From positions 1 through 16,379 of IMG/VR virus record IMGVR_UViG_2602041863_000003: DNA of 16,379 bases; one strand, 5' to 3'. The stretch comes from a virus. Lineage: Duplodnaviria > Heunggongvirae > Uroviricota > Caudoviricetes. The first letter of the stretch is position 1. Every line of letters begins with the position of its first letter. The notes under the pieces were generated by a model. That model was given only the letters and a program-made list of their open reading frames with translations. It ran no database searches and was not told the origin of the DNA. Positions 3,427-12,442 of this stretch are shown here, one piece after another. The translations under genes and the position numbers were made by a program.

Positions 3427-3451
3427 AAACCCGCTTAAATGCGGGTTTTTT
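3427..3451 (+). terminator. Intrinsic terminator hairpin downstream of Q (candidate tR'-like)
   Basis: aaacccgcttaaatgcgggtttttt: perfect stem cccgc/gcggg, T6 tail; possible -10 TATAGT at 3417-3422 (weak). Confidence 0.55.
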
Positions 3452-3524
3452 GCTTAACTCTGTGGACCTTTTTATCTGTAGTTGTAAGATATGGATATTC
3501 TTACAATTTAGGTCGGTGAGCTTA

Positions 3525-4289
3525 ATGGAAGAACAGCACGGTAATTACTTTATAAAACGAATTCAGTTGATTGGAAGGGGTGCATTTGGCTTTGTTGAAC
3601 ACGTTAAGGTTTACAACCTCAACAAGGGTGAATGTGGGGATTATGCTAGAAAGGTTTTAGCCCCCGAAAAACCAGAGCTTTTGGCGCAAATAGAGCAGTT
3701 TAGAAGGCGTTTTAAAAGGGAGGTCGTGTATCAATCACATTGCGTACATAGCAATATTGTTCCTATTTATTTGTGCGATTTGTTTGCCGAGAATCCATGG
3801 TTCATTATGGATAAAGCAGAATGTGATCTTGAGCACGAAATAACGAACAACCTTCTTACAACAGATCAAAAAATTTCAATAGTGAAAATGGTATTAGATG
3901 GTGTAGCTCACATCCATGCGAAAGGCTATTTACACAGAGATATAAAACCATTTAATGTCTTGCGATTTAGCGACGGAACATACAAGGTGTCTGATTTTGG
4001 TCTGGTAAAAGATACAAATCCCGAAGGGGATACCACTAAATTGACCGAGATCGGTACCCGTATGGGAAGTACAAGATATATGGCTCCCGAGATTTTATAT
4101 AATGCCGAGTATTCAGTTAAGACTGATGTTTATGCGGTGGGGCGGTTAATTGAGGACTTAAATTTAGATGATAAAAAAATAAAGCCTATCATAGCGAAGT
4201 GTACCAGGATGGATAAAGATGATAGATATCAGACAATAGATGATGTGGCGTTTGATTTTGTGCATTCTTTTTTAAGGAGTGAGTCATGA
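3525..4289 (+). CDS. Eukaryotic-like (Hanks-type) Ser/Thr protein kinase, minimal catalytic domain only
   Basis: Gly-rich loop IGRGAFGFV, candidate beta3 Lys in YARKV, HRDIKPFN catalytic loop, DFG (VSDFGL), APE (YMAPE); ATG 3525 with GGTGAG upstream; ORF-track start 3450 is a TTG inside the terminator. Confidence 0.85.
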   Translation: MEEQHGNYFIKRIQLIGRGAFGFVEHVKVYNLNKGECGDYARKVLAPEKPELLAQIEQFRRRFKREVVYQSHCVHSNIVPIYLCDLFAENPWFIMDKAECDLEHEITNNLLTTDQKISIVKMVLDGVAHIHAKGYLHRDIKPFNVLRFSDGTYKVSDFGLVKDTNPEGDTTKLTEIGTRMGSTRYMAPEILYNAEYSVKTDVYAVGRLIEDLNLDDKKIKPIIAKCTRMDKDDRYQTIDDVAFDFVHSFLRSES

Positions 4290-5029
4290 TTCAGCTGATA
4301 GCGACTTCATCATTCTCGTATCCAAAAGAACCAGGTAGGGTCAACGAAGATTCATTGCTTCCTCCCAAAATTGTAGGGGATGGCATCTTATTTGCCGTAG
4401 CTGATGGTGTAGGTTCATACACTGGTGCCAGTCAGGCTTCATCAATGGCAATTGCTGAACTTTCAGCATTGACAAGCTTATCTTTTGACACAGTTCCGGA
4501 TGTATTTGATGAAGTTAAGCGAAAGGTTATGTCGTTAGCTGATGTTAATGATGAGTTCGATAAAGCTGCTACTACACTTACGTTTTGTTATGTTTGTGAT
4601 AGCGGAATTATTATTGGTCATATTGGTGATTGTCGTTTGTATTGCATTGGAGAGAAGAAAGCATACCAATTGACGAAGGACGATACCAGGCATCAGATGC
4701 TAATTGATCAGAATATTTTTAAACCCAGAGATTTGAAGGATAAACCGGGCAAAAATATCTTAACGACGGCTATAGCCTCAAATGTTGATATGGAATACGA
4801 CTGTGATTTTATCACATGGAAAGATTTACCTAGTATTAACGGGGTATATCATCTGTGTATCATGTCTGATGGGGTTCATAACGTTTGGGAAAAACGCCCC
4901 AGATTTACATCAAATACGATGAGTAATAGTCAGAAGTTTTCTAATGGCATTTTGCGTCGTATAGAGAGAGCCGGACCTGATGATGACTTTTCTTTAGTAA
5001 GTATAATGGTGCGTGTGACGTCAGATTAG
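4286..5029 (+). CDS. PP2C-family Ser/Thr protein phosphatase
   Basis: NEDS, AVADGVGS, IGDCR, IMSDGVHN and C-terminal DDD residues match PP2C metal-binding motifs; AAGGAG RBS 6 nt upstream; ATG overlaps kinase stop (ATGA). Confidence 0.8.
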   Translation: MIQLIATSSFSYPKEPGRVNEDSLLPPKIVGDGILFAVADGVGSYTGASQASSMAIAELSALTSLSFDTVPDVFDEVKRKVMSLADVNDEFDKAATTLTFCYVCDSGIIIGHIGDCRLYCIGEKKAYQLTKDDTRHQMLIDQNIFKPRDLKDKPGKNILTTAIASNVDMEYDCDFITWKDLPSINGVYHLCIMSDGVHNVWEKRPRFTSNTMSNSQKFSNGILRRIERAGPDDDFSLVSIMVRVTSD

Positions 5030-5596: not shown

Positions 5597-6646
5597 ATGA
5601 CTAATACTGTAAAAATATCCAGTTGTGAGTTAATCAACGCTGATTGCCTGAAATTTATCCAGACCTTACCGGAAAACTCTGTCGATCTGATAGTCACAGA
5701 CCCGCCATACTTTAAAGTGAAGCCCGAGGGCTGGGATAACCAGTGGGAGGGCGACGATGATTACCTGAAATGGCTGGACCAGTGTCTGGCGCAGTTCTGG
5801 CGGGTACTGAAGCCTGCCGGAAGTCTTTACCTGTTCTGTGGTCATCGCCTGGCATCTGACACCGAAATCATGATGCGTGAGCGCTTTAATGTGCTGAACC
5901 ACATTATCTGGGCGAAGCCGTCCGGACGCTGGAACGGGTGCAATAAGGAAAGTCTGCGGGCGTATTTTCCGGCAACAGAGCGCATTCTGTTTGCAGAACA
6001 TTATCAGGGACCGTATCGCCCGAAAGATGATGGCTATGTGGCACAGGGGCGCGAGCTAAAACAGCACGTCATGGCCCCGCTGATTTCTTACTTTCGTGAT
6101 GCGCGTAAATCACTGGGAATAACGTCAAAACAGATAGCGGAAGCCACCGGAAAGAAAAACATGGCTTCGCACTGGTTTGGTACCAGTCAGTGGCAGTTAC
6201 CGAACGAGGGTGATTACAACAAATTGCAGGCGTTGTTTGCGCGTGTTGCGGCAGAAAAACATCAGCGCGGGGAACTGGAAAAGCCACACCACCAGCTGGT
6301 CAGCACATACAGTGAGCTGAACCGGCAGTACACGGAACTGCTGAGTGAATATAAAAATTTGCGGCGGTATTTCGGTGTGACGGCGCAGGTTCCGTACACC
6401 GATGTCTGGACGCATAAACCGGTGCAGTACTATCCAGGAAAACATCCGTGCGAAAAACCGGCAGAAATGCTGCAGCAGATAATCAACGCGAGCAGTCGTC
6501 CGGGAGACCTGGTTGCAGATTTTTTTATGGGTTCAGGTTCAACGGTAAAAGCGGCGATGGCACTGGGGCGTTGTGCGATTGGTGTTGAGCTGGAGACAGG
6601 ACGTTTTGAACAGACAGTCAGGGAAGTTCAGGATTTAATCGTTTGA
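5597..6646 (+). CDS. DNA methyltransferase, beta-class (N6-adenine or N4-cytosine), no adjacent restriction gene
   Basis: VTDPPYF (motif IV) near N-terminus and DFFMGSGST (motif I, AdoMet binding) near C-terminus: beta-class motif order. Confidence 0.85.
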   Translation: MTNTVKISSCELINADCLKFIQTLPENSVDLIVTDPPYFKVKPEGWDNQWEGDDDYLKWLDQCLAQFWRVLKPAGSLYLFCGHRLASDTEIMMRERFNVLNHIIWAKPSGRWNGCNKESLRAYFPATERILFAEHYQGPYRPKDDGYVAQGRELKQHVMAPLISYFRDARKSLGITSKQIAEATGKKNMASHWFGTSQWQLPNEGDYNKLQALFARVAAEKHQRGELEKPHHQLVSTYSELNRQYTELLSEYKNLRRYFGVTAQVPYTDVWTHKPVQYYPGKHPCEKPAEMLQQIINASSRPGDLVADFFMGSGSTVKAAMALGRCAIGVELETGRFEQTVREVQDLIV

Positions 6647-6695: not shown

Positions 6696-6771
6696 GGCCC
6701 TTTAGCTCAGTGGTGAGAGCGAGCGACTCATAATCGCCAGGTCGCTGGTTCAAATCCAGCAAGGGCCACCA
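6696..6771 (+). tRNA. tRNA-Ile2-like (anticodon CAU; Met/Ile-lysidine type)
   Basis: Cloverleaf traced by hand: acceptor ggccctt/aagggcc, anticodon loop cucauaa, T-loop ttcaaat, CCA encoded; close to E. coli ileX as recalled. Confidence 0.85.
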
Positions 6772-6772
6772 A

Positions 6773-6849
6773 CCGTCACCAGTTCATCAGGAAAGAGCGT
6801 CAACCCTTTAAGTTGAGTGTGCGAGGTTCGAGTCCTCGGTGGCGGGCCA
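6773..6849 (+). tRNA. Atypical tRNA-like gene, anticodon read as UUU, with C8 and C33
   Basis: Acceptor ccgtcac/gtggcgg (one G-U), D-arm with G18G19, anticodon stem tcaac/gttga, loop ccuuuaa, T-arm cgagg-ttcgagt-cctcg, CCA encoded; departs from near-universal U8 and U33. Confidence 0.45.
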
Positions 6850-6851
6850 GT

Positions 6852-6927
<76 letters not shown>

Positions 6928-6930
6928 TAT

Positions 6931-7005
<75 letters not shown>

Positions 7006-7305: not shown

Positions 7306-7429
7306 ATTCATTTTTTTCATGGCTCGCTACGGCGGGCCTTTTTCATATCCTCGCCACACCCGGCGCATATCACATCAAATAACGCCGCGCAAAAGGCATC
7401 TGCGGGCGCCTTTGACGGGGTGTTTTTAC

Positions 7430-7451
7430 GGGCCGCTGGTGGCCCTTTTTT
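7430..7451 (+). terminator. Terminator-like hairpin directly upstream of the lysis cassette RBS
   Basis: gggcc-gctggt-ggccc followed by T6; ends 7 nt before AGGAG RBS of the 7471 gene. Confidence 0.5.
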
Positions 7452-7470
7452 ATTTACAGGAGAAAAACGT

Positions 7471-7860
7471 ATGTCTGAACCCTTATCTGGTTCCGGCACG
7501 GCTGCGGCGCTCGGTGGGGCGACGGTATTCGGGCTGTTTACCGGAACGGATTTCGGGATTGTGTTTGGTGCGTTCGCCGGGGCGTTATTTGTGGCAACGA
7601 TGCCGCAGGCGCTTTCAATCTGGCGTGTGGTGGCGCATTTTTTGGTGTCGTTTATCGTCGGCGTGCTGGGGGCGCGCGTGCTGTCAGCCTGGATTGCATC
7701 AAAAACAGGGTATGACGGTACATCGGCAGATGCGCTGTGTGCGGTGCTGGTATCGGTGGTGTCGGTGAAGATTCTGTCGTTCATCCACCAGCAGGATATT
7801 GCATCGCTGGTGTCCGGTGTGTTCTCCCGTCTGCGGGGTGGAGGCGGTAATGTTAAGTAA
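7471..7860 (+). CDS. Membrane protein, putative holin (lysis cassette gene 1)
   Basis: 129 aa, AGGAG RBS 8 nt upstream; Gly/Ala-rich hydrophobic segments consistent with 3 TM helices; first gene of block ending in endolysin. Confidence 0.55.
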   Translation: MSEPLSGSGTAAALGGATVFGLFTGTDFGIVFGAFAGALFVATMPQALSIWRVVAHFLVSFIVGVLGARVLSAWIASKTGYDGTSADALCAVLVSVVSVKILSFIHQQDIASLVSGVFSRLRGGGGNVK

Positions 7861-8125
7861 CCTTCCCGGATTACTGAATGTGGTGTTAAGCACGGTTATC
7901 GTGCTGACGCTCTTTTTTTATCGTCGTGGTGATTCCAGACATAAACCGCTGATGTCGTGGCTGGCCTGGCTGCTGATGCTGCTGTATGCCTTTGCGCCAC
8001 TTTGTTATCTGTGTGGTCGCTTTCCACCCGGTAACTGGCTGGTCGTCCTGATTAACCTGGTGTTCTGCGTGCTGGTGATACGAGCACGCGGGAACGTATC
8101 AAAAATCCTTTCATTACGGAGGTGA
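7850..8125 (+). CDS. Small membrane protein, putative holin/antiholin-type lysis protein (lysis cassette gene 2)
   Basis: ATG 7850 with GGAGG 5 nt upstream, overlaps previous stop; 91 aa with 2-3 hydrophobic helices and basic C-terminus. Confidence 0.5.
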   Translation: MLSNLPGLLNVVLSTVIVLTLFFYRRGDSRHKPLMSWLAWLLMLLYAFAPLCYLCGRFPPGNWLVVLINLVFCVLVIRARGNVSKILSLRR

Positions 8126-8127
8126 GT

Positions 8128-8505
8128 ATGCCCGGTAAATTCAGATTCAGTCGTCGAAGTGAGAAAAATCTGGAGGGCGTCAAACCACAGCTGGTTGCTG
8201 TTGTTCGCCGTGCGCTGGAGCTGACGGAGGTTGACTTCGGTATTACGGAAGGCCTGCGCAGTAAGTATCGCCAGAAGCAGCTGGTCGCGGAAGGGAAAAG
8301 CCAGACCATGAACAGCCGCCACCTGACCGGTGATGCGGTGGATGTTGTGGCCTACATTGGTAGCCAGGTGTCATGGGACTGGCCTCTGTACGAGAAAATC
8401 GCGCAGGCATTTAAGCAGGCTGCCGCAGAGCTGGGAACTGCCATCGAATGGGGCGGGGACTGGAAAACACTGAAAGACGGGCCTCACTTTCAGTTGAAGC
8501 GCTAA
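8128..8505 (+). CDS. Endolysin, peptidase M15 family (L-alanyl-D-glutamate peptidase-like)
   Basis: SRHLTGDAVDV (SxHxxGxAxD zinc-binding motif) and DGPHFQ (DxxH); GGAGG RBS; 125 aa. Confidence 0.8.
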   Translation: MPGKFRFSRRSEKNLEGVKPQLVAVVRRALELTEVDFGITEGLRSKYRQKQLVAEGKSQTMNSRHLTGDAVDVVAYIGSQVSWDWPLYEKIAQAFKQAAAELGTAIEWGGDWKTLKDGPHFQLKR

Positions 8506-8519
8506 TAACCAGGTGGTTT

Positions 8520-8702
8520 ATGAGCCGAAAACACTGGACACACAGAATGCCGCGAACGGCGGCGAAATGGGCACTGGTAGCGATACTGGTGCCTTTTTTC
8601 CTGGTGGGATGCGTTAGCCTGGATAAGGTGCGCCAGCTTTTCGATACGGCCTCGCAGGTCTGCGAAATTGTCGAAAGTGCCAGGCAGTGTATGCAGAACT
8701 GA
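8520..8702 (+). CDS. Small lipoprotein, possible lysis accessory/spanin-like protein
   Basis: Basic N-terminus, hydrophobic stretch WALVAILVPFFLVG and lipobox LVGC; AGGTGG RBS; lies where Rz/Rz1 sit in lambda; not proline-rich like typical o-spanins. Confidence 0.4.
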   Translation: MSRKHWTHRMPRTAAKWALVAILVPFFLVGCVSLDKVRQLFDTASQVCEIVESARQCMQN

Positions 8703-8789
8703 TCGCCTGTAAGAGCAGAATATTGTTGAATCTAAATTTACTTTGAACAGTGGCCCGGATGGAAAGGGCATCTAAATAGGAGCAGAAAA

Positions 8790-8999
8790 ATGTTAACTGT
8801 AAAAGTCATGTCTCAAAATGGTGGGGAAGAGCTCCATTGCGGGCGTAGCATTGGCTATCATCCAGAGCAGCGGAGTATTGCCGTATCGGGAAAGGATGGG
8901 AAAGTCATTCTGAAAGATGGAGATATTGCTTATGTAATGAACCAAAACGCTCAAATAATATCTGTTTATCGGCCCAATAATAGTCAGAAAAACATTTGA
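8790..8999 (+). CDS. Hypothetical small protein (69 aa)
   Basis: AGGAG RBS 7 nt upstream of ATG; AT-rich by eye; no motif recognised. Confidence 0.5.
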   Translation: MLTVKVMSQNGGEELHCGRSIGYHPEQRSIAVSGKDGKVILKDGDIAYVMNQNAQIISVYRPNNSQKNI

Positions 9000-9122
9000 A
9001 TTTCGCAAGTCCAAAGTTCAGTGGTGATCGTTATCAACTAATTGAAATAACAAGCTTATGTTTGTGTAATTGGTGATATAGCATGTTAATGCTGAATATC
9101 AGCGTCAACATGGAGTTATACA

Positions 9123-9338
9123 ATGGTTTTTAAACACTATTACGTGAACAAAAATGCTCAGAGCAATGGCGATCATGAGGTGCATGCTGAGGAATGTTCA
9201 TATCTTCCTTCTGTAGCTAACCGCGATTACCTTGGTTACTATAGTGATTGTTCTTCGGCGGTAACAGAGGCAAAGGCCAAAGGATATTCCCGGGTGAATG
9301 GTTGCTATTGGTGTGCCAATAAGTGCCACACGTCTTAA
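9123..9338 (+). CDS. Hypothetical small Cys-rich protein (71 aa)
   Basis: GGAG RBS; five Cys plus His (C..C, CxxCxxxC near C-terminus) suggest a metal-binding knuckle; terminator follows. Confidence 0.5.
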   Translation: MVFKHYYVNKNAQSNGDHEVHAEECSYLPSVANRDYLGYYSDCSSAVTEAKAKGYSRVNGCYWCANKCHTS

Positions 9339-9357
9339 TCAATTGTCAATAAACCAT

Positions 9358-9381
9358 AAAGGCCGCTCTGCGGCCTTTTTC
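9358..9381 (+). terminator. Intrinsic terminator (ggccgc-tct-gcggcc + T5)
   Basis: Perfect 6-bp GC stem, 3-nt loop, T-run, 20 nt after stop of the 9123 gene. Confidence 0.65.
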
Positions 9382-9649
9382 ATGTTAAAAAAGATTGCGG
9401 CATTACAGCAGCCCTTCACACTGAGTGGCTGCGATAATGTGAGAAATAAAAAACCGGCAGGGGAAATCCATTGAAGATTTGCCGGTGGCAAAAAGATGGC
9501 CATGCTTTCAACCTTAGTCGCAGGGTTACGGAGTGCAACTACGAATGCTGCCGGTATATGGCTGAATGGCGTTTCAATGATGTACGTCATCTTATCTGTA
9601 AATGTTAATGATAAAAGCTCTCATTTGTGCGGGTCCTTCCGGTGGGGTG

Positions 9650-9680
9650 GCCTGCCACGGGGCGGGAGCGTCGCGGAAAA
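9650..9680 (+). other. Candidate cos site (cosN-like), with cosB-like region extending to the terminase small-subunit gene
   Basis: ccacggggcgggagcgtcgcgg resembles lambda cosN (acggggcggcgacctcgcgg) as recalled; sits about 170 bp upstream of the Nu1-like gene; downstream has ttcgtcat like the lambda cosB region. Confidence 0.5.
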
Positions 9681-9845
9681 AGGCTAGTTTTTGAAATTTT
9701 ATTCGTCATCACCATCACTGTAATTGATTGATATTACAGTGATTTTATTTTTATGGTGTCGATTCTGATTGTTTTTTGTTCATCACTAACACCGTTTGCC
9801 TAAAGTTGTTCGCAAGATGCATGTTTAAAACATTCTGGAGCGGGT

Positions 9846-10340
9846 ATGGATCGAGAGTTAAAAAATCTGACGCTGAATATCAGTCAACTGGCGGCATTGT
9901 CAGGTGTACATCGCCAGACTGCTGCGGCAAGGCTGCAAAATCTACCCGTTGCAGGGGGGCATGAAAGCAACCTCAAGCTTTATCGGGTGGTTGATATTGT
10001 GTCGGCATTTCTGGCATTACCACCGCCGGTTGCAGAAGGCGAAATGGACGCGCATGAGCGCAAAGCCTGGTATCAGTCTGAACGTGAGCGTCTTAAGTTC
10101 GAACAGGAAACGGCGCAACTCATTCCGGCCAGTGATGTCAGACGGGAGTTTGCCATCTGGGCAAAAGCGGTCGTGCAGGTGCTGGAGACATTACCGGATA
10201 TTCTTGAACGTGACTGCGGTCTGCAGCCTGCCGCTGTGAGCCGTGTTCAGTCCATTATTGATGATCTGCGCGATCAGATAGCCCTGCGGGTGACCGAAGC
10301 AGGTGCGGATGATGAGGAGGAATTACAGCAGGAGGAGTAA
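9846..10340 (+). CDS. Terminase small subunit (Nu1-like DNA packaging protein)
   Basis: N-terminal wHTH-like LTLNISQLAALSGVHRQTAAARL, acidic C-terminus; GGAG RBS; stop overlaps large-subunit ATG. Confidence 0.75.
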   Translation: MDRELKNLTLNISQLAALSGVHRQTAAARLQNLPVAGGHESNLKLYRVVDIVSAFLALPPPVAEGEMDAHERKAWYQSERERLKFEQETAQLIPASDVRREFAIWAKAVVQVLETLPDILERDCGLQPAAVSRVQSIIDDLRDQIALRVTEAGADDEEELQQEE

Positions 10341-12442
10341 TGCTGAATCAGGAAACCGCAAAGGCAGCACGAACCGATTCAGGTTATATCCTTCGCGCAC
10401 CGAGACGAATGCAGGTTGCTGATGCCGTTGCTCAATATATGCGGGTGCCCATGGGGGCCGGGAACTCAGTCCCGTGGGATCCGCTGGTGGCACCGTATGT
10501 TATTGAGCCGATGAACTGCCTGGCCTCGCGTGAATACGACGCAGTGATATTTGTTGGCCCGGCACGAACCGGCAAGACTATCGGCCTGATTGACGGCTGG
10601 GTGATTTACAACGTGATTTGCGATCCTGCGGATATGCTGATCATTCAGATGACGGAGGAAAAAGCCCGCGAACACTCCAAAAAACGACTTGCCAGAACGT
10701 TTCGCGTCAGCCCGGAAGTGGTCAGTCGCCTGAGTCCGAACAAAAATGACAACAACGTTTATGACAGAACATTCCTTGCTGGTAACTACCTGAAAATCGG
10801 CTGGCCGTCAGTCAATATCATGTCCTCATCAGATTATAAATGCGTCGCGCTGACGGATTATGACCGTTTTCCGGAAGATATTGATGGCGAGGGGGATGCT
10901 TTCTCTCTTGCCTCAAAACGTACCACAACATTTATGTCCAGTGGTATGACGCTGGTGGAGAGTTCCCCCGGCAGGGATGTGAAGGATGTGAAATGGCGAC
11001 GGACTTCACCGCATGAGGCTCCACCAACCACGGGGATCCTGTCGCTCTATAACCGTGGTGATCGCCGTCGCTGGTACTGGCCCTGTCCACACTGTGGTGA
11101 GTATTTTCAGCCCTGCGGCGATGTGGTTGCTGATTTCCGTGATATTGCCGATCCCGTGCTGGCAAGTGAGGCGGCTTATATTCAGTGTCCTTCCTGTTCA
11201 GGACGGATTATGCCTGAACAAAAACGTGAGCTGAACGGACGTGGGGTCTGGTTGCGGGATGGTGAATCCATCAATGCGGATGGCAGTCGTTATGGTGATC
11301 CCCGACGCTCACGTATTGCGTCATTCTGGATGGAGGGTCCGGCAGCTGCTTACCAGACACTCTCGCAACTCGTTTACAAACTGCTTACTGCAGAACAGGA
11401 ATACGAGACAACCGGAAGTGAAGAAACACTCAAGACGGTTATCAATACCGACTGGGGATTACCTTATCTTCCCCGTGCCAGCATGGAGCAACGAAAAAGT
11501 GAACTGCTTGAGCAGCGGGCAGAGCCAGTTCTTTCCCGCAGTGTGCCGGATGGCGTTAATTTCCTTGTGGCGACAGTGGATGTGCAGGCGGGACGTCATC
11601 GCCGTTTTGTGGTTCAGGTAACGGGCTATGGCAGCCGTGGCGAACGCTGGATTATTGATCGTTACAACATCACGCAGTCATTGCGCGGTGACAGCGACGG
11701 GGAGAGCCAGCGAATTGATCCGGCCAGCTACCCGGAAGACTGGGATGTCCTGCTGACGGATGTTTTTCATAAAAGCTGGCCGCTGGCCTCCGATCCTTCT
11801 CAACAAATGCGACTGATGGCAATGGCGGTGGACTCCGGCGGTGAAGACGGGGTCACTGATAATGCCTATAAATTCTGGCGTCGTTGCCGTCGTGATGGCC
11901 TTGGTAAACGTATTTACCTGTTTAAGGGTGACAGCATCCGGCGCGCAAAACTGATCAGCCGTACATTCCCTGATAACACCGGACGAACGGGCCGCCGGGC
12001 GCAGGCCGCAGGTGATGTGCCGCTCTGGCTTCTTCAGACGGATGCCCTGAAAGACCGGGTGAATAACGCGTTATGGCGTGACTCGCCAGGTCCCGGCTAT
12101 GTGCATTTCCCTGACTGGCTGGGGAGCTGGTTTTACGACGAACTGACGTATGAAGAGCGGAGCAGTGACGGGAAATGGAGTAAGCCGGGTCGCGGTGCCA
12201 ACGAAGCTTTTGACCTGATGGTGTATGCCGAGGCTCTGGTCATTCTGCATGGATACGAAAAGATCCGCTGGCCGGATGCACCGGAGTGGGCGAGCCGGGA
12301 AACCTGGCTGGAGTGTGTCCCGGACAGTACCGAACCGTCACCCTCACCGGAACCGGTATCCACGCCTGTTAAAAAACAAAAACGGAAGAAAACAGTAACT
12401 GACGATGTTAACCCCTGGCTGACTTCCGGAGGATGGTTATGA
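10340..12442 (+). CDS. Terminase large subunit (lambda gpA-like)
   Basis: 700 aa; Walker A VGPARTGKT; CPHCGEYF zinc-finger-like motif as in lambda gpA (CPHCGE). Confidence 0.9.
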   Translation: MLNQETAKAARTDSGYILRAPRRMQVADAVAQYMRVPMGAGNSVPWDPLVAPYVIEPMNCLASREYDAVIFVGPARTGKTIGLIDGWVIYNVICDPADMLIIQMTEEKAREHSKKRLARTFRVSPEVVSRLSPNKNDNNVYDRTFLAGNYLKIGWPSVNIMSSSDYKCVALTDYDRFPEDIDGEGDAFSLASKRTTTFMSSGMTLVESSPGRDVKDVKWRRTSPHEAPPTTGILSLYNRGDRRRWYWPCPHCGEYFQPCGDVVADFRDIADPVLASEAAYIQCPSCSGRIMPEQKRELNGRGVWLRDGESINADGSRYGDPRRSRIASFWMEGPAAAYQTLSQLVYKLLTAEQEYETTGSEETLKTVINTDWGLPYLPRASMEQRKSELLEQRAEPVLSRSVPDGVNFLVATVDVQAGRHRRFVVQVTGYGSRGERWIIDRYNITQSLRGDSDGESQRIDPASYPEDWDVLLTDVFHKSWPLASDPSQQMRLMAMAVDSGGEDGVTDNAYKFWRRCRRDGLGKRIYLFKGDSIRRAKLISRTFPDNTGRTGRRAQAAGDVPLWLLQTDALKDRVNNALWRDSPGPGYVHFPDWLGSWFYDELTYEERSSDGKWSKPGRGANEAFDLMVYAEALVILHGYEKIRWPDAPEWASRETWLECVPDSTEPSPSPEPVSTPVKKQKRKKTVTDDVNPWLTSGGWL

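What the first reader, a model, noticed from the sequence alone, without database searches (positions are those of the whole stretch)
8790..9338. Two small AT-rich ORFs between the lysis cassette and cos
Both have good RBSs and a terminator after the second; one is Cys-rich (C..C, CxxCxxxC). They occupy the position where lambda carries bor, so they may be lysogenic-conversion or host-interaction factors. No function is recognisable from sequence.
Basis: seen in the sequence. Interest (0 to 1): 0.35.

Follow-up and report, generated by a model that had tools for sequence, protein, structure and literature searches.

The report
Two uncharacterised small prophage accessory genes
Both small ORFs between the lysis genes and cos of this E. 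coli lambdoid prophage are real, conserved protein genes of unknown function; the second is a self-contained unit encoding a Cys/His-rich mini-protein found across many bacterial phyla, and the first belongs to a small all-beta family known only from enterobacterial phages.

Summary
ORF1 (8790-8999, 69 aa) and ORF2 (9123-9338, 71 aa) have Shine-Dalgarno sites 7 nt upstream and lie in a low-GC segment, and ORF2 is followed by an intrinsic terminator. Both are under purifying selection (dN/dS 0.19 and 0.05-0.13).

They form a roughly 670-bp cargo cassette in the variable slot between the lysis cassette and cos. It occurs in 45 of 5,426 complete E. coli genomes.

- **ORF2:** it has 801 homologue clusters, found in at least 582 species of many phyla, at about 65% identity. 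Five Cys and two His are invariant. The AF2 model is confident (pLDDT 95) but has no PDB, Pfam or NCBIfam match. PGAP leaves it unannotated in the two E. coli records inspected. Comparative evidence shows its own -10 element, a covarying 5' stem-loop and a terminator, so it looks like a classic moron.
- **ORF1:** it is confined to Enterobacterales prophages and virulent phages (T5-like and phages of 135-147 kb). It shows no promoter of its own and is probably a late, lytic-phase accessory protein.
- **Linkage:** the two genes travel together in both gene orders across many different flanks, yet each also occurs alone.

The biochemical function of both proteins is still unknown.

The parts
8729..9398 (.). 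Variable cargo cassette (ORF1 + ORF2 unit) between the lysis module and the cos/terminase module
   Evidence: In E. coli genomes, homology to the lysis cassette ends at query 1329 (window about 8728). Homology to the terminase side begins at window about 9399 (H72) or about 9627 (most records). The 751-bp cassette query is present in 45 of 5,426 genomes. GC drops to 0.32-0.45.
8778..8782 (+). Shine-Dalgarno (AGGAG) of ORF1, 7 nt before the ATG
   Evidence: Read directly from the sequence.
8790..8999 (+). ORF1: 69-aa cytoplasmic all-beta protein, member of phrog_3909 (unknown function)
   Evidence: ORF listed. phrog_3909 E=3.2e-36. tblastn finds it in 252 phage records. 128 homologue clusters, all from Enterobacterales or their phages where a source names them, plus one Pseudomonas. 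dN/dS 0.19. AF2 pLDDT 91 with seven strands. No significant PDB fold match. The fold is shared with uncharacterised small phage proteins in BFVD.
9079..9084 (+). -10-like hexamer TAGCAT of the putative ORF2 promoter (weak -35 TTATGT at 9056-9061)
   Evidence: A TAnnnT hexamer with at least 4/6 matches lies 6-7 nt upstream of the hairpin in 21 of 21 unique enterobacterial ORF2 upstream regions. T1, A2 and T6 are invariant and the middle positions vary. These blocks are conserved in the window/Salmonella alignment even where ORF1 has diverged to 51%. The generic promoter scan did not call it, and it has not been tested experimentally.
9089..9105 (+). Conserved 5' stem-loop ahead of the ORF2 ribosome-binding site (core GCTGA-ATA-TCAGC, 9091-9103)
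   Evidence: Present in all 21 unique enterobacterial homologues, ending 19-20 nt before the ATG. 92.7% of cells are paired, against 86.8% in shuffles (0 of 500 reach the observed value). Three pairs show changes on both sides. Sliding the partners gives 13-64% paired. The G.U pairs are possible only on the sense strand.
9112..9115 (+). Shine-Dalgarno (GGAG) of ORF2, 7 nt before the ATG
   Evidence: Read directly from the sequence.
9123..9338 (+). ORF2: 71-aa Cys/His-rich mini-protein, member of phrog_4298, part of a cross-phylum family absent from Pfam and NCBIfam
   Evidence: phrog_4298 E=3.6e-32. 801 homologue clusters. At least 582 species genomes. Invariant Y6 Y7 N9 Q13 N15 D17 E19 V20 H21 C25 P29 N33 G38 C43 A46 G60 C61 C64 C68 H69. 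AF2 pLDDT 95, topology beta-beta-beta-alpha-beta. Best Foldseek PDB E=4.3. dN/dS 0.05-0.13. Not annotated in RefSeq E24377A or CP025856.
9358..9383 (+). Intrinsic terminator directly after ORF2 (9-bp GC-rich stem, 3-nt loop, T run); also scores on the - strand
   Evidence: An equivalent terminator follows ORF2 in Salmonella and in the alternative gene order.

Best explanation
The segment is a roughly 670-bp accessory cassette in the hypervariable slot between the lysis genes and cos of a lambdoid prophage. It carries two real but uncharacterised genes with different expression logic.

**ORF2.** It is an autonomous transcription unit, a moron. It has a weak sigma-70 promoter whose -10 element sits 6-7 nt before a conserved 5'-terminal RNA stem-loop. 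A Shine-Dalgarno site, the 71-codon ORF and an intrinsic terminator follow. Its product is a cytoplasmic mini-protein of about 68 aa. Eight (near-)invariant Cys/His residues (H18, H21, C25, C43, C61, C64, C68, H69) most likely hold one or two metal ions, with Zn more likely than Fe-S. This would present an invariant polar loop (YYVNKNAQxNGDHEVH) to a target conserved across bacteria. I infer that it is expressed from the prophage in the lysogen and serves the host-prophage pair, for example in stress protection or in interference with incoming elements.

**ORF1.** It is a 69-aa all-beta protein of a family restricted to phages of Enterobacterales. No promoter of its own is evident, so I infer that it is read from the Q-antiterminated late transcript. 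Because it is also found in unrelated virulent phages, it most likely acts during lytic growth on an enterobacterial host factor.

**Shown versus inferred.** Shown: both are coding, conserved and cargo-like; ORF2 has the architecture of its own transcription unit; the two genes are linked; neither has a known relative. Inferred: metal binding, the timing of expression and any cellular target.
For: **Coding and selection**
- Both ORFs match PHROG families and have many homologues.
- dN/dS is well below 1 for both.

**Cargo status**
- The cassette is in 45 of 5,426 E. coli genomes, while 2,331 match some part of the 3-kb query spanning it and its flanks.
- The same ORF1-ORF2 pair sits in Salmonella prophages that have other lysis and terminase modules.

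**ORF2 as its own transcription unit**
- A -10-like TAnnnT is at a fixed distance in 21 of 21 unique sequences.
- The stem-loop covaries.
- A terminator follows ORF2 in every enterobacterial arrangement examined.
- In Streptococcus phage Javan231 and Staphylococcus phage 187 the homologue is a lone gene opposed to the early lytic genes; in Javan231 it is co-oriented with cI and int. It is likewise opposed to the Q/lysis genes in a Photobacterium prophage and lies in the variable region of a Vibrio inovirus.

**ORF2 protein**
- The Cys/His pattern is invariant and identity across phyla is about 65%.
- The model is confident but orphan.

**ORF1 as a late, lytic gene**
- In the ORF2->ORF1 order it begins about 25 nt after the terminator's T run.
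- It is found in T5-like, 135-147-kb and 74-kb virulent phages.
- In other lambdoid phages it occupies the same lysis-to-terminase slot, co-oriented with the late genes.
Against: - No expression data were available. The promoter has a poor -35 (2-3 of 6) and the generic scan did not call it.
- Metal binding is inferred from the conservation pattern alone. I could not inspect the model's coordinates.
- In Bacteroidota the ORF2 homologue is not a moron. It is an internal gene of a tightly packed operon downstream of a TPR-histidine kinase and a response regulator. Its role is therefore not intrinsically phage-related.
- The strong ORF1-ORF2 linkage (61 of 79 viral ORF2 loci, both orders, many flanks) suggests the two may not be functionally independent.
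Confidence: 0.55

Rival explanations
1. ORF1 and ORF2 are a functional two-gene module. ORF2 is a lysogen-expressed effector, for example one that excludes superinfecting phages or modulates a host process. ORF1 is its phage-encoded partner or antagonist. ORF1 would be made only when late transcription reads through the terminator, so that the induced prophage is spared. Virulent phages would carry ORF1 alone as a counter-measure.
For: - Of 79 viral-contig loci with an ORF2 homologue, 61 have an ORF1 homologue within 1.5 kb. 23 are in the order ORF1->ORF2 with a 127-bp gap, 36 are in the order ORF2->terminator->ORF1 with a 71-78 bp gap, and 2 are 1.3-1.4 kb apart.
- The ORF2->ORF1 pair is kept intact among at least 9 different upstream and at least 19 different downstream flank types.
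- Salmonella L090 keeps the adjacency even though its ORF1 has diverged to 51-58% identity.
- A terminator follows ORF2 in both gene orders, so it separates the genes in the ORF2->ORF1 order, and ORF1 shows no evident promoter.
- ORF1 occurs alone in virulent phages of the same hosts. ORF2 occurs alone in chromosomes, including next to an nSTAND3 NTPase, an Mrr_N protein, a relaxase and IS elements.
Against: - Each gene is common without the other. 42 of 56 diverged ORF1 prophage loci lack ORF2. ORF2 loci L198 and L200 (82-85% identical) lack ORF1. Gram-positive phage, Vibrio inovirus and Bacteroidota homologues have no ORF1.
- The linked loci may descend from only a few ancestral cassettes, and genes less than 130 bp apart are rarely separated by recombination.
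- There is no PADLOC hit.
Confidence: 0.2
2. ORF2 is a small sequence-specific nucleic-acid-binding regulator. It would be a zinc-stabilised three-stranded sheet packed on a helix, like the AP2/ERF, Tn916-Int or lambda-Int N-terminal DNA-binding fold, and would control host or phage genes in the lysogen.
For: - The predicted topology is beta-beta-beta-alpha.
- Three of the 27 weak Foldseek matches are AP2 domains: 1gcc, 7wq5 and 7et5.
- hhalign aligns NRxYLGxFsxCxxAV with ARVWLGTFETAEDAA of AtERF1, at the equivalent strand-3-to-helix position.
Against: - The hhalign probability is only 15.8% over 15 columns.
- Foldseek E-values are 5.9-6.8 with TM 0.26-0.29.
- By my residue count the protein is about neutral in charge (7 K/R against 7 D/E).
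- Its invariant residues are Asn, Gln, Asp and His, not the Arg and Trp that AP2 domains use.
Confidence: 0.1
3. The ORFs encode envelope-targeted lysogenic-conversion factors analogous to lambda Bor or Lom.
For: Only the genomic position, between the lysis genes and cos.
Against: - Neither protein has a signal peptide, lipobox or hydrophobic segment (read from the translations).
- No Pfam family was found for either ORF.
- Both are on the + strand; from my own knowledge, lambda bor is on the opposite strand.
- ORF1 is abundant in virulent phages.
Confidence: 0.02
4. One or both ORFs are chance open frames in AT-rich spacer DNA.
For: The ORFs are short. PGAP does not annotate ORF2 in the two E. 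coli RefSeq records inspected.
Against: - PHROG matches at E<=1e-32.
- Hundreds of homologues with conserved length and residues.
- dN/dS of 0.05-0.19 with saturated dS.
- AF2 pLDDT of 91-95.
Confidence: 0.01

Closest known systems
Morons of lambdoid phages (autonomous promoter-gene-terminator units between conserved late genes, as described for HK97/HK022; lambda bor sits in this very slot). This comparison rests on my own knowledge of the phage literature.
   Same: Same slot between the lysis genes and cos. Deviant base composition. Present or absent among otherwise similar prophages. The ORF2 unit has its own -10-like element and terminator.
   Different: The products are not envelope proteins like Bor or Lom. 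ORF1 shows no promoter of its own and also occurs in virulent phages. ORF2's family is mainly chromosomal and spans many phyla.
PHROG families phrog_3909 (ORF1) and phrog_4298 (ORF2)
   Same: Full-length matches at E=3e-36 and E=4e-32.
   Different: Both PHROGs are listed as 'unknown function', so membership says nothing about mechanism. phrog_4298 under-represents the family, which is mostly cellular.
AP2/ERF-type DNA-binding domain (three-stranded sheet plus helix)
   Same: Same order of secondary-structure elements, and a shared local motif (W/Y)LGxF followed by an Ala-rich helix.
   Different: No significant sequence or fold match. ORF2 adds a C-terminal CxxCxxxCH segment and lacks the basic DNA-contacting residues.
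Small phage-encoded inhibitor proteins such as anti-CRISPRs (e.g. AcrIF9)
   Same: ORF1 is a phage-borne compact beta protein of 60-70 aa that has spread horizontally among unrelated phages of one host group. AcrIF9 (7c78) appears among the weak fold matches with TM 0.46.
   Different: That match is not significant (E=2.9, probability 0.21). There is no evidence for any inhibitory activity.
Ferredoxin-type 4Fe-4S domains
   Same: The CxxCxxxC spacing gives weak hits to PsaC and to the Fer4 Pfam models.
   Different: E-values are 3.8-10 against the PDB, and only 2 of 121 members hit Fer4. By inspection of the family consensus, the canonical CxxCxxCxxxCP motif is absent, and the invariant His residues suggest Zn.

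Membership tests
Moron (autonomous accessory transcription unit in a phage late region) | Presence/absence polymorphism between otherwise homologous phage genomes | tested here: met
   45 of 5,426 E. coli genomes carry the cassette, against 2,331 that match some part of the 3-kb query spanning it and its flanks. Homology breaks at about 8728 and at about 9399/9627.
Moron (autonomous accessory transcription unit in a phage late region) | Own terminator downstream of the gene | tested here: met
   Terminator at 9358-9378. It is conserved after ORF2 in Salmonella and in the alternative gene order. It applies to ORF2, not to ORF1.
Moron (autonomous accessory transcription unit in a phage late region) | Own promoter upstream of the gene | tested here: inconclusive
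   For ORF2, TAnnnT lies 6-7 nt before the 5' hairpin in 21 of 21 unique sequences. However, the -35 is weak, the generic scan is negative and there are no transcript data. For ORF1 no promoter is evident, and there is no room for one in the ORF2->ORF1 arrangement.
Moron (autonomous accessory transcription unit in a phage late region) | Base composition different from the flanking phage genes | tested here: met
   GC 0.32-0.45 against 0.52-0.58.
Lambda Bor-like lipoprotein | Signal peptide with lipobox; Bor Pfam family | tested here: not met
   No Pfam hit at E<=1. No hydrophobic N-terminus or lipobox in either translation.
Type II toxin-antitoxin pair | Two small genes co-transcribed with overlap or a few bp of spacing, and obligately co-occurring | tested here: not met
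   Gaps are 71-127 bp, with a terminator between the genes in one order. Each gene is common alone. No toxin or antitoxin Pfam or PADLOC match.
Known anti-phage defence systems (PADLOC-DB v2) | Match to a defence-protein model | tested here: not met
   No family at E<=1 for either ORF.
AP2/ERF-like DNA-binding domain | Significant profile or fold similarity to AP2 domains | tested here: not met
   hhalign probability 15.8% over 15 columns. Foldseek E 5.9-6.8, TM 0.26-0.29.
Zinc-binding mini-protein (generic) | Four or more invariant Cys/His ligands arranged around a metal | tested here: inconclusive
   H21, C25, C43, C61, C64, C68 and H69 are invariant, and H18 is at least 90% conserved, in 121 sequences. 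Ligand geometry and metal content could not be examined.
phrog_3909 / phrog_4298 | Full-length HMM match | tested here: met
   E=3.2e-36 (residues 1-64 of 64 profile positions) and E=3.6e-32 (residues 3-70, profile 1-69 of 70).

The most novel reading that the evidence does not exclude
ORF2 founds a new, cross-phylum family of metal-binding mini-proteins with an unrecognised fold, which temperate phages of both Gram-negative and Gram-positive bacteria have repeatedly captured as a lysogen-expressed moron. In enterobacterial prophages it would form a two-gene module with ORF1, a phage-specific late protein that neutralises or partners it. Virulent T5-like and other large phages would carry ORF1 alone as a counter-measure. 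That would make this a previously undescribed pair of prophage effector and phage antagonist.
Probability: 0.15. Interest if true: 0.75.

Novelty: new member of a known kind. Interest (0 to 1): 0.42.

Why it matters
The slot and the moron logic are textbook, so the genome organisation itself is ordinary. The gene content is what deserves attention.

- **ORF2 family.** This 68-aa family is about 65% identical from E. coli prophages to Bacteroidota, Acidobacteriota and Planctomycetota. It has an invariant Cys/His set and a confident predicted structure with no PDB relative. It is missing from Pfam and NCBIfam and is left unannotated in the two E. coli RefSeq records inspected. Such strong constraint in a mobile small protein implies a conserved target or ligand that nobody has identified.
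- **Linkage with ORF1.** The repeated physical coupling with a phage-only protein that also occurs alone in virulent phages gives a concrete, cheap hypothesis to test: effector plus antagonist.
- **Annotation.** The results also flag a systematic gap and one mis-called overlapping ORF.

Tried and rejected
- **Family libraries.** Pfam, NCBIfam and PADLOC scans of both ORFs gave no family. Scanning every member of both alignments against Pfam at E<=5 gave only scattered weak hits: Fer4 in 2 of 121, SlipAM in 6 of 121, DUF3060 in 15 of 86. None was consistent enough to use.
- **PDB sequence search.** The profile search gave only PsaC at E>3 for ORF2 and WD40 repeat proteins at E=0.005-0.3 for ORF1. 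I read both as motif or repeat artefacts. The big WD40-like proteins in the 1.8-billion-representative search match through many short stretches and were set aside for the same reason.
- **Foldseek against the PDB.** Best E was 4.3 for ORF2 and 0.95 for ORF1.
- **Foldseek against BFVD (ORF1 only).** All matches were uncharacterised phage proteins.
- **AP2-domain hypothesis for ORF2.** An AP2 alignment was built from PDB-verified sequences and compared by hhalign. The probability was 15.8%, so I rejected membership.
- **Conserved partner for ORF2 in cellular genomes.** The only recurrent context is Bacteroidota synteny with a TPR-histidine kinase, a response regulator and a variable set of small genes. 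No universal partner emerged.
- **Literature.** Searches for the PHROG ids, the accession and locus tags, and the sequence motifs returned nothing. A DUF4236/DUF1508 search returned nothing relevant.
- **Rfam.** Only three tRNAs were found in the window, and no known RNA family in the cassette.
- **Other frames.** The minus-strand ORFs 8793-9014 and 9339-9590 have no PHROG match and were dropped.
- **Near-identical phage DNA.** There is none in INPHARED.
Full report
**1. The observation**

The window is a lambdoid prophage of E. coli. Bases 8700-9450 are 99.9% identical to E. coli E24377A and occur in 45 of 5,426 complete E. coli genomes, always on the chromosome.

The local gene order is as follows:
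- two holins (7420-7860 and 7799-8125);
- an M15 endolysin (8122-8505);
- a 60-aa lipoprotein-like ORF (8520-8702);
- ORF1 (8790-8999, 69 aa);
- ORF2 (9123-9338, 71 aa);
- a terminator;
- terS (DUF1441, 9846-10340) and terL (10340-12442).

Each ORF has a Shine-Dalgarno sequence 7 nt before its ATG. The stem-loop at 9358-9378 followed by a T run is recognised as an intrinsic terminator on both strands. GC falls to 0.32-0.45 across the segment, against 0.52-0.58 in the flanks.

A sequence resembling lambda cosN (GGGCGGGAGCGT; the lambda sequence is from my own knowledge) lies at about 9660-9671. The record of phage mEp460_4F5 begins at the position matching window 9655.

**2. Both ORFs are real genes**

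- ORF1 matches phrog_3909 (E=3e-36) and ORF2 matches phrog_4298 (E=4e-32). Both PHROGs are listed as 'unknown function'.
- Against Salmonella homologues, dN/dS is 0.19 for ORF1 and 0.07-0.13 for ORF2. Among ORF2 copies in other enterobacterial prophages the median is 0.05.
- AlphaFold2 models built on family alignments are confident. ORF2 has pLDDT 95 with topology beta-beta-beta-alpha-beta. ORF1 has pLDDT 91 with seven strands.
- RefSeq does not annotate ORF2 in E24377A or in CP025856. In the latter, an out-of-frame 58-aa ORF (window 9298-9474) that runs through the terminator is annotated instead.

**3. The segment is cargo in a variable slot**

A 3-kb query (7400-10400) matches 2,331 E. coli genomes in part. 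Lysis-cassette homology ends at about window 8728. Terminase-side homology begins at about 9399 in some genomes and at about 9627 in most. Only one complete genome covers at least 80% of the query.

The cassette is therefore about 8729-9398. The same ORF1-ORF2 pair is found in Salmonella prophages that carry different lysis genes (a GH19 endolysin with DUF2514) and lambda-type Nu1/gpA terminases.

**4. ORF2**

*Distribution.*
- The family has 801 homologue clusters, typically 68 aa and 58-76% identical to the window protein.
By record title they span Bacteroidota (the majority of the best 80), Acidobacteriota, Gemmatimonadota, Planctomycetota, Verrucomicrobiota, Actinomycetota, Myxococcota, Fusobacteriota, Patescibacteria, and Alpha- and Gammaproteobacteria.
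- tblastn also finds it in temperate Streptococcus, Staphylococcus and Erysipelothrix phages and in a Vibrio inovirus.

*Conserved residues.* The consensus is MxxYYVNKNAQSNGDHEVHxxxCSYLPxxxNRxYLGxFSxCxxAVxEAKKxYxQxNGCYYCSNxCHTS. Twenty positions are invariant in 121 sequences, including H21, C25, C43, C61, C64, C68 and H69. H18 is at least 90% conserved. Eight potential ligands in 68 residues suggest one or two bound metal ions. This is an inference, because I could not inspect the coordinates.

*No known relative.* There is no Pfam, NCBIfam or PADLOC match. The PDB sequence search gave only PsaC at E>3, caused by the CxxCxxxC spacing. The best Foldseek E against the PDB is 4.3.

*AP2 lead.* Three AP2 domains appear among the weak fold hits, and ORF2 shares with them the motif (W/Y)LGxF followed by an Ala-rich helix. 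I therefore built an AP2 alignment from PDB-verified sequences and ran hhalign. The probability was 15.8% over 15 columns. This is a topological resemblance at most.

**5. ORF2 is a self-contained transcription unit**

*Conserved upstream blocks.* In the alignment of the window with two Salmonella cassettes, the region upstream of ORF2 keeps conserved blocks even where ORF1 has diverged to 51%.

*5' stem-loop.* Across 21 unique enterobacterial upstream regions there is a stem-loop of the form (G/A)CTGN-loop-N'CAG(C/T). Its 3' end lies 19-20 nt before the ATG. On an 18-sequence alignment:
- 92.7% of cells are paired, and 0 of 500 shuffles reach this value;
- three pairs show changes on both sides (for example A-U, C-G and U-A at the innermost pair);
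- sliding the partners drops pairing to 13-64%.

The G.U pairs are compatible only with the sense strand, which favours an RNA element.

*Promoter element.* A TAnnnT hexamer with at least 4/6 matches to TATAAT lies 6-7 nt upstream of the stem in 21 of 21 sequences. T1, A2 and T6 are invariant and the middle positions vary. This is the conservation pattern expected of a -10 element, and it would place the transcription start at the foot of the hairpin. The -35 is weak, and the generic promoter scan did not call this site.

*Terminator.* An intrinsic terminator follows the stop codon in every enterobacterial arrangement examined.

*Orientation in other phages.* In Streptococcus phage Javan231 and Staphylococcus phage 187 the homologue is a solitary gene facing against the early lytic genes. 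In Javan231 it faces the same way as the cI-like repressor and the integrase. In a Photobacterium prophage it faces against the Q-like and lysis genes.

Together this supports expression in the lysogen, but it does not prove it.

**6. ORF2 in cellular genomes**

I clustered the neighbouring ORFs of 80 loci. In about 32 of them, mostly Bacteroidota, the gene lies 80-300 bp downstream of, and co-oriented with, a TPR-containing histidine kinase and a response regulator. A variable set of co-oriented genes follows:
- DUF4236;
- YegP/DUF1508;
- an HsdR_N / PD-(D/E)XK protein;
- a TerB-like protein;
- an SH3 lipoprotein;
- membrane proteins.

One metagenomic example shows an operon with gaps of only 3-16 bp. 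Elsewhere the gene sits beside IS1595 transposases and an Mrr_N protein, or beside an nSTAND3 NTPase and a relaxase fragment. No universal partner emerges.

**7. ORF1**

*Distribution.* A profile search gave 128 clusters. Where a source names them they come from Enterobacterales or their phages, plus one Pseudomonas. tblastn finds ORF1 in 252 phage records. These include T5-like Sugarlandvirus, phages of 135-147 kb, a 74-kb phage and lambdoid phages. In the T5-like example it lies among small hypothetical genes, nearly all on the same strand. In the lambdoid phage Fraca and a Klebsiella prophage it occupies the same lysis-to-terminase slot.

*Sequence and fold.* The consensus is MLTVKVMSPxGGEEIHxGxSVGFNPxQQSIAVSGMDQNIFLKEGEVAYVMNQNGKTISxY. 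A search of 1.8 billion representatives adds about 80 more distant proteins of 60-100 aa sharing MLTVK...YVMN..GKT. No PDB fold match is significant. In BFVD the fold recurs in uncharacterised small proteins of phages Av-05, ZL19, Serbin, Rtp and 201phi2-1, with TM 0.6-0.85.

*Expression.* In the ORF2->ORF1 arrangement, ORF1's ribosome-binding site starts about 25 nt after the terminator's T run, leaving no room for a promoter. I infer that ORF1 is read from the antiterminated late transcript and acts in lytic growth.

**8. Linkage of the two genes**

Among 79 viral-contig loci with an ORF2 homologue, 61 also have an ORF1 homologue:
- 23 in the window's order with a 127-bp gap;
- 36 in the reverse order (ORF2, terminator, ORF1) with gaps of 71-78 bp;
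- 2 separated by 1.3-1.4 kb.

The reverse-order pair is embedded in at least 9 upstream and at least 19 downstream flank types, so it moves as a unit through mosaic genomes.

Against an obligate partnership:
- 42 of 56 diverged ORF1 loci lack ORF2;
- ORF2 loci L198 and L200 lack ORF1;
- ORF2 outside Enterobacterales never has ORF1.

The linkage is real. Whether it reflects function or shared descent is open. I give the effector-plus-antagonist reading about 0.2.

**9. Verdict**

The organisation is a textbook moron slot, so I file the finding as a new member of a known kind. The position and the unrecognisable function are right. Lysogenic conversion is plausible for ORF2 but not for ORF1, and neither protein resembles Bor.

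The most noteworthy point is the ORF2 family itself. It is a strongly constrained, cross-phylum Cys/His mini-protein with a confident orphan fold, absent from the curated family libraries and unannotated in the two E. coli RefSeq records inspected.

Noticed in passing
window 8520-8702 (+): A 60-aa ORF directly after the M15 endolysin has a signal peptide and a lipobox (LVGC) and matches phrog_7528, 'unknown function'. It looks like an o-spanin/Rz1-type lipoprotein, but I saw no i-spanin (Rz-like) ORF in this lysis cassette.
   Followed up: no
window 9298-9474 (+); NZ_CP025856.1 888131-888307: RefSeq annotates a 58-aa 'hypothetical protein' (WP_001382523.1) that is out of frame with the 3' end of ORF2 and runs through the terminator. 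ORF2 itself is left unannotated there and in E24377A. This is probably a mis-call.
   Followed up: partly
window 9626-9693: A 64-68-bp piece of the cos region matches unannotated chromosomal spots at 90-98% identity in further E. coli genomes, including HS and MRE162 (H97-H105). These may be cos remnants of cryptic prophages.
   Followed up: no
window 9496-9687 (+): A 63-aa ORF spanning the cos site hits phrog_17397 (E=5e-8) and is annotated as hypothetical in related phages. It is probably a family of annotation artefacts over conserved cos DNA.
   Followed up: no
window 3450-5029 (+): A Ser/Thr protein kinase and a PP2C phosphatase sit as a pair downstream of the Q antiterminator, followed by a DNA methyltransferase (5597-6646), according to the E24377A annotation of the matching region.
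   Followed up: no
window 6696-7002 (+): Three tRNA genes lie between the methyltransferase and the lysis cassette. They are annotated Ile, Thr and Gly in E24377A.
   Followed up: no
L090 3740-5790 (Salmonella prophage): The cassette DUF465 - ORF1 homologue - ORF2 homologue lies between two copies of a DUF2514 (Rz-like) gene. This suggests insertion by recombination within the spanin gene.
   Followed up: no
Enterobacter hormaechei proteins AIE64449.1/AIE64450.1 and similar pairs: Two ORF1-family proteins of 75 and 67 aa carry consecutive accession numbers in several Enterobacter genomes. This implies tandem paralogues of ORF1.
   Followed up: no
L259 770-8097 (Bacteroidota metagenome contig): A tightly packed operon reads: TPR-histidine kinase, response regulator, a 240-aa protein, the ORF2 homologue, DUF4236, an Excalibur-domain protein, a TerB-like protein, a 421-aa membrane protein and more. 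Gaps downstream of the 240-aa gene are mostly 3-16 bp. Versions of it recur in about 32 of 80 loci. I did not identify it as a known regulon.
   Followed up: partly
E24377A locus L001 10149-10900: In E24377A the prophage is truncated right after terS. A partial Ail/Lom gene and tail-fibre genes follow. The cassette therefore survives in a defective prophage there.
   Followed up: no
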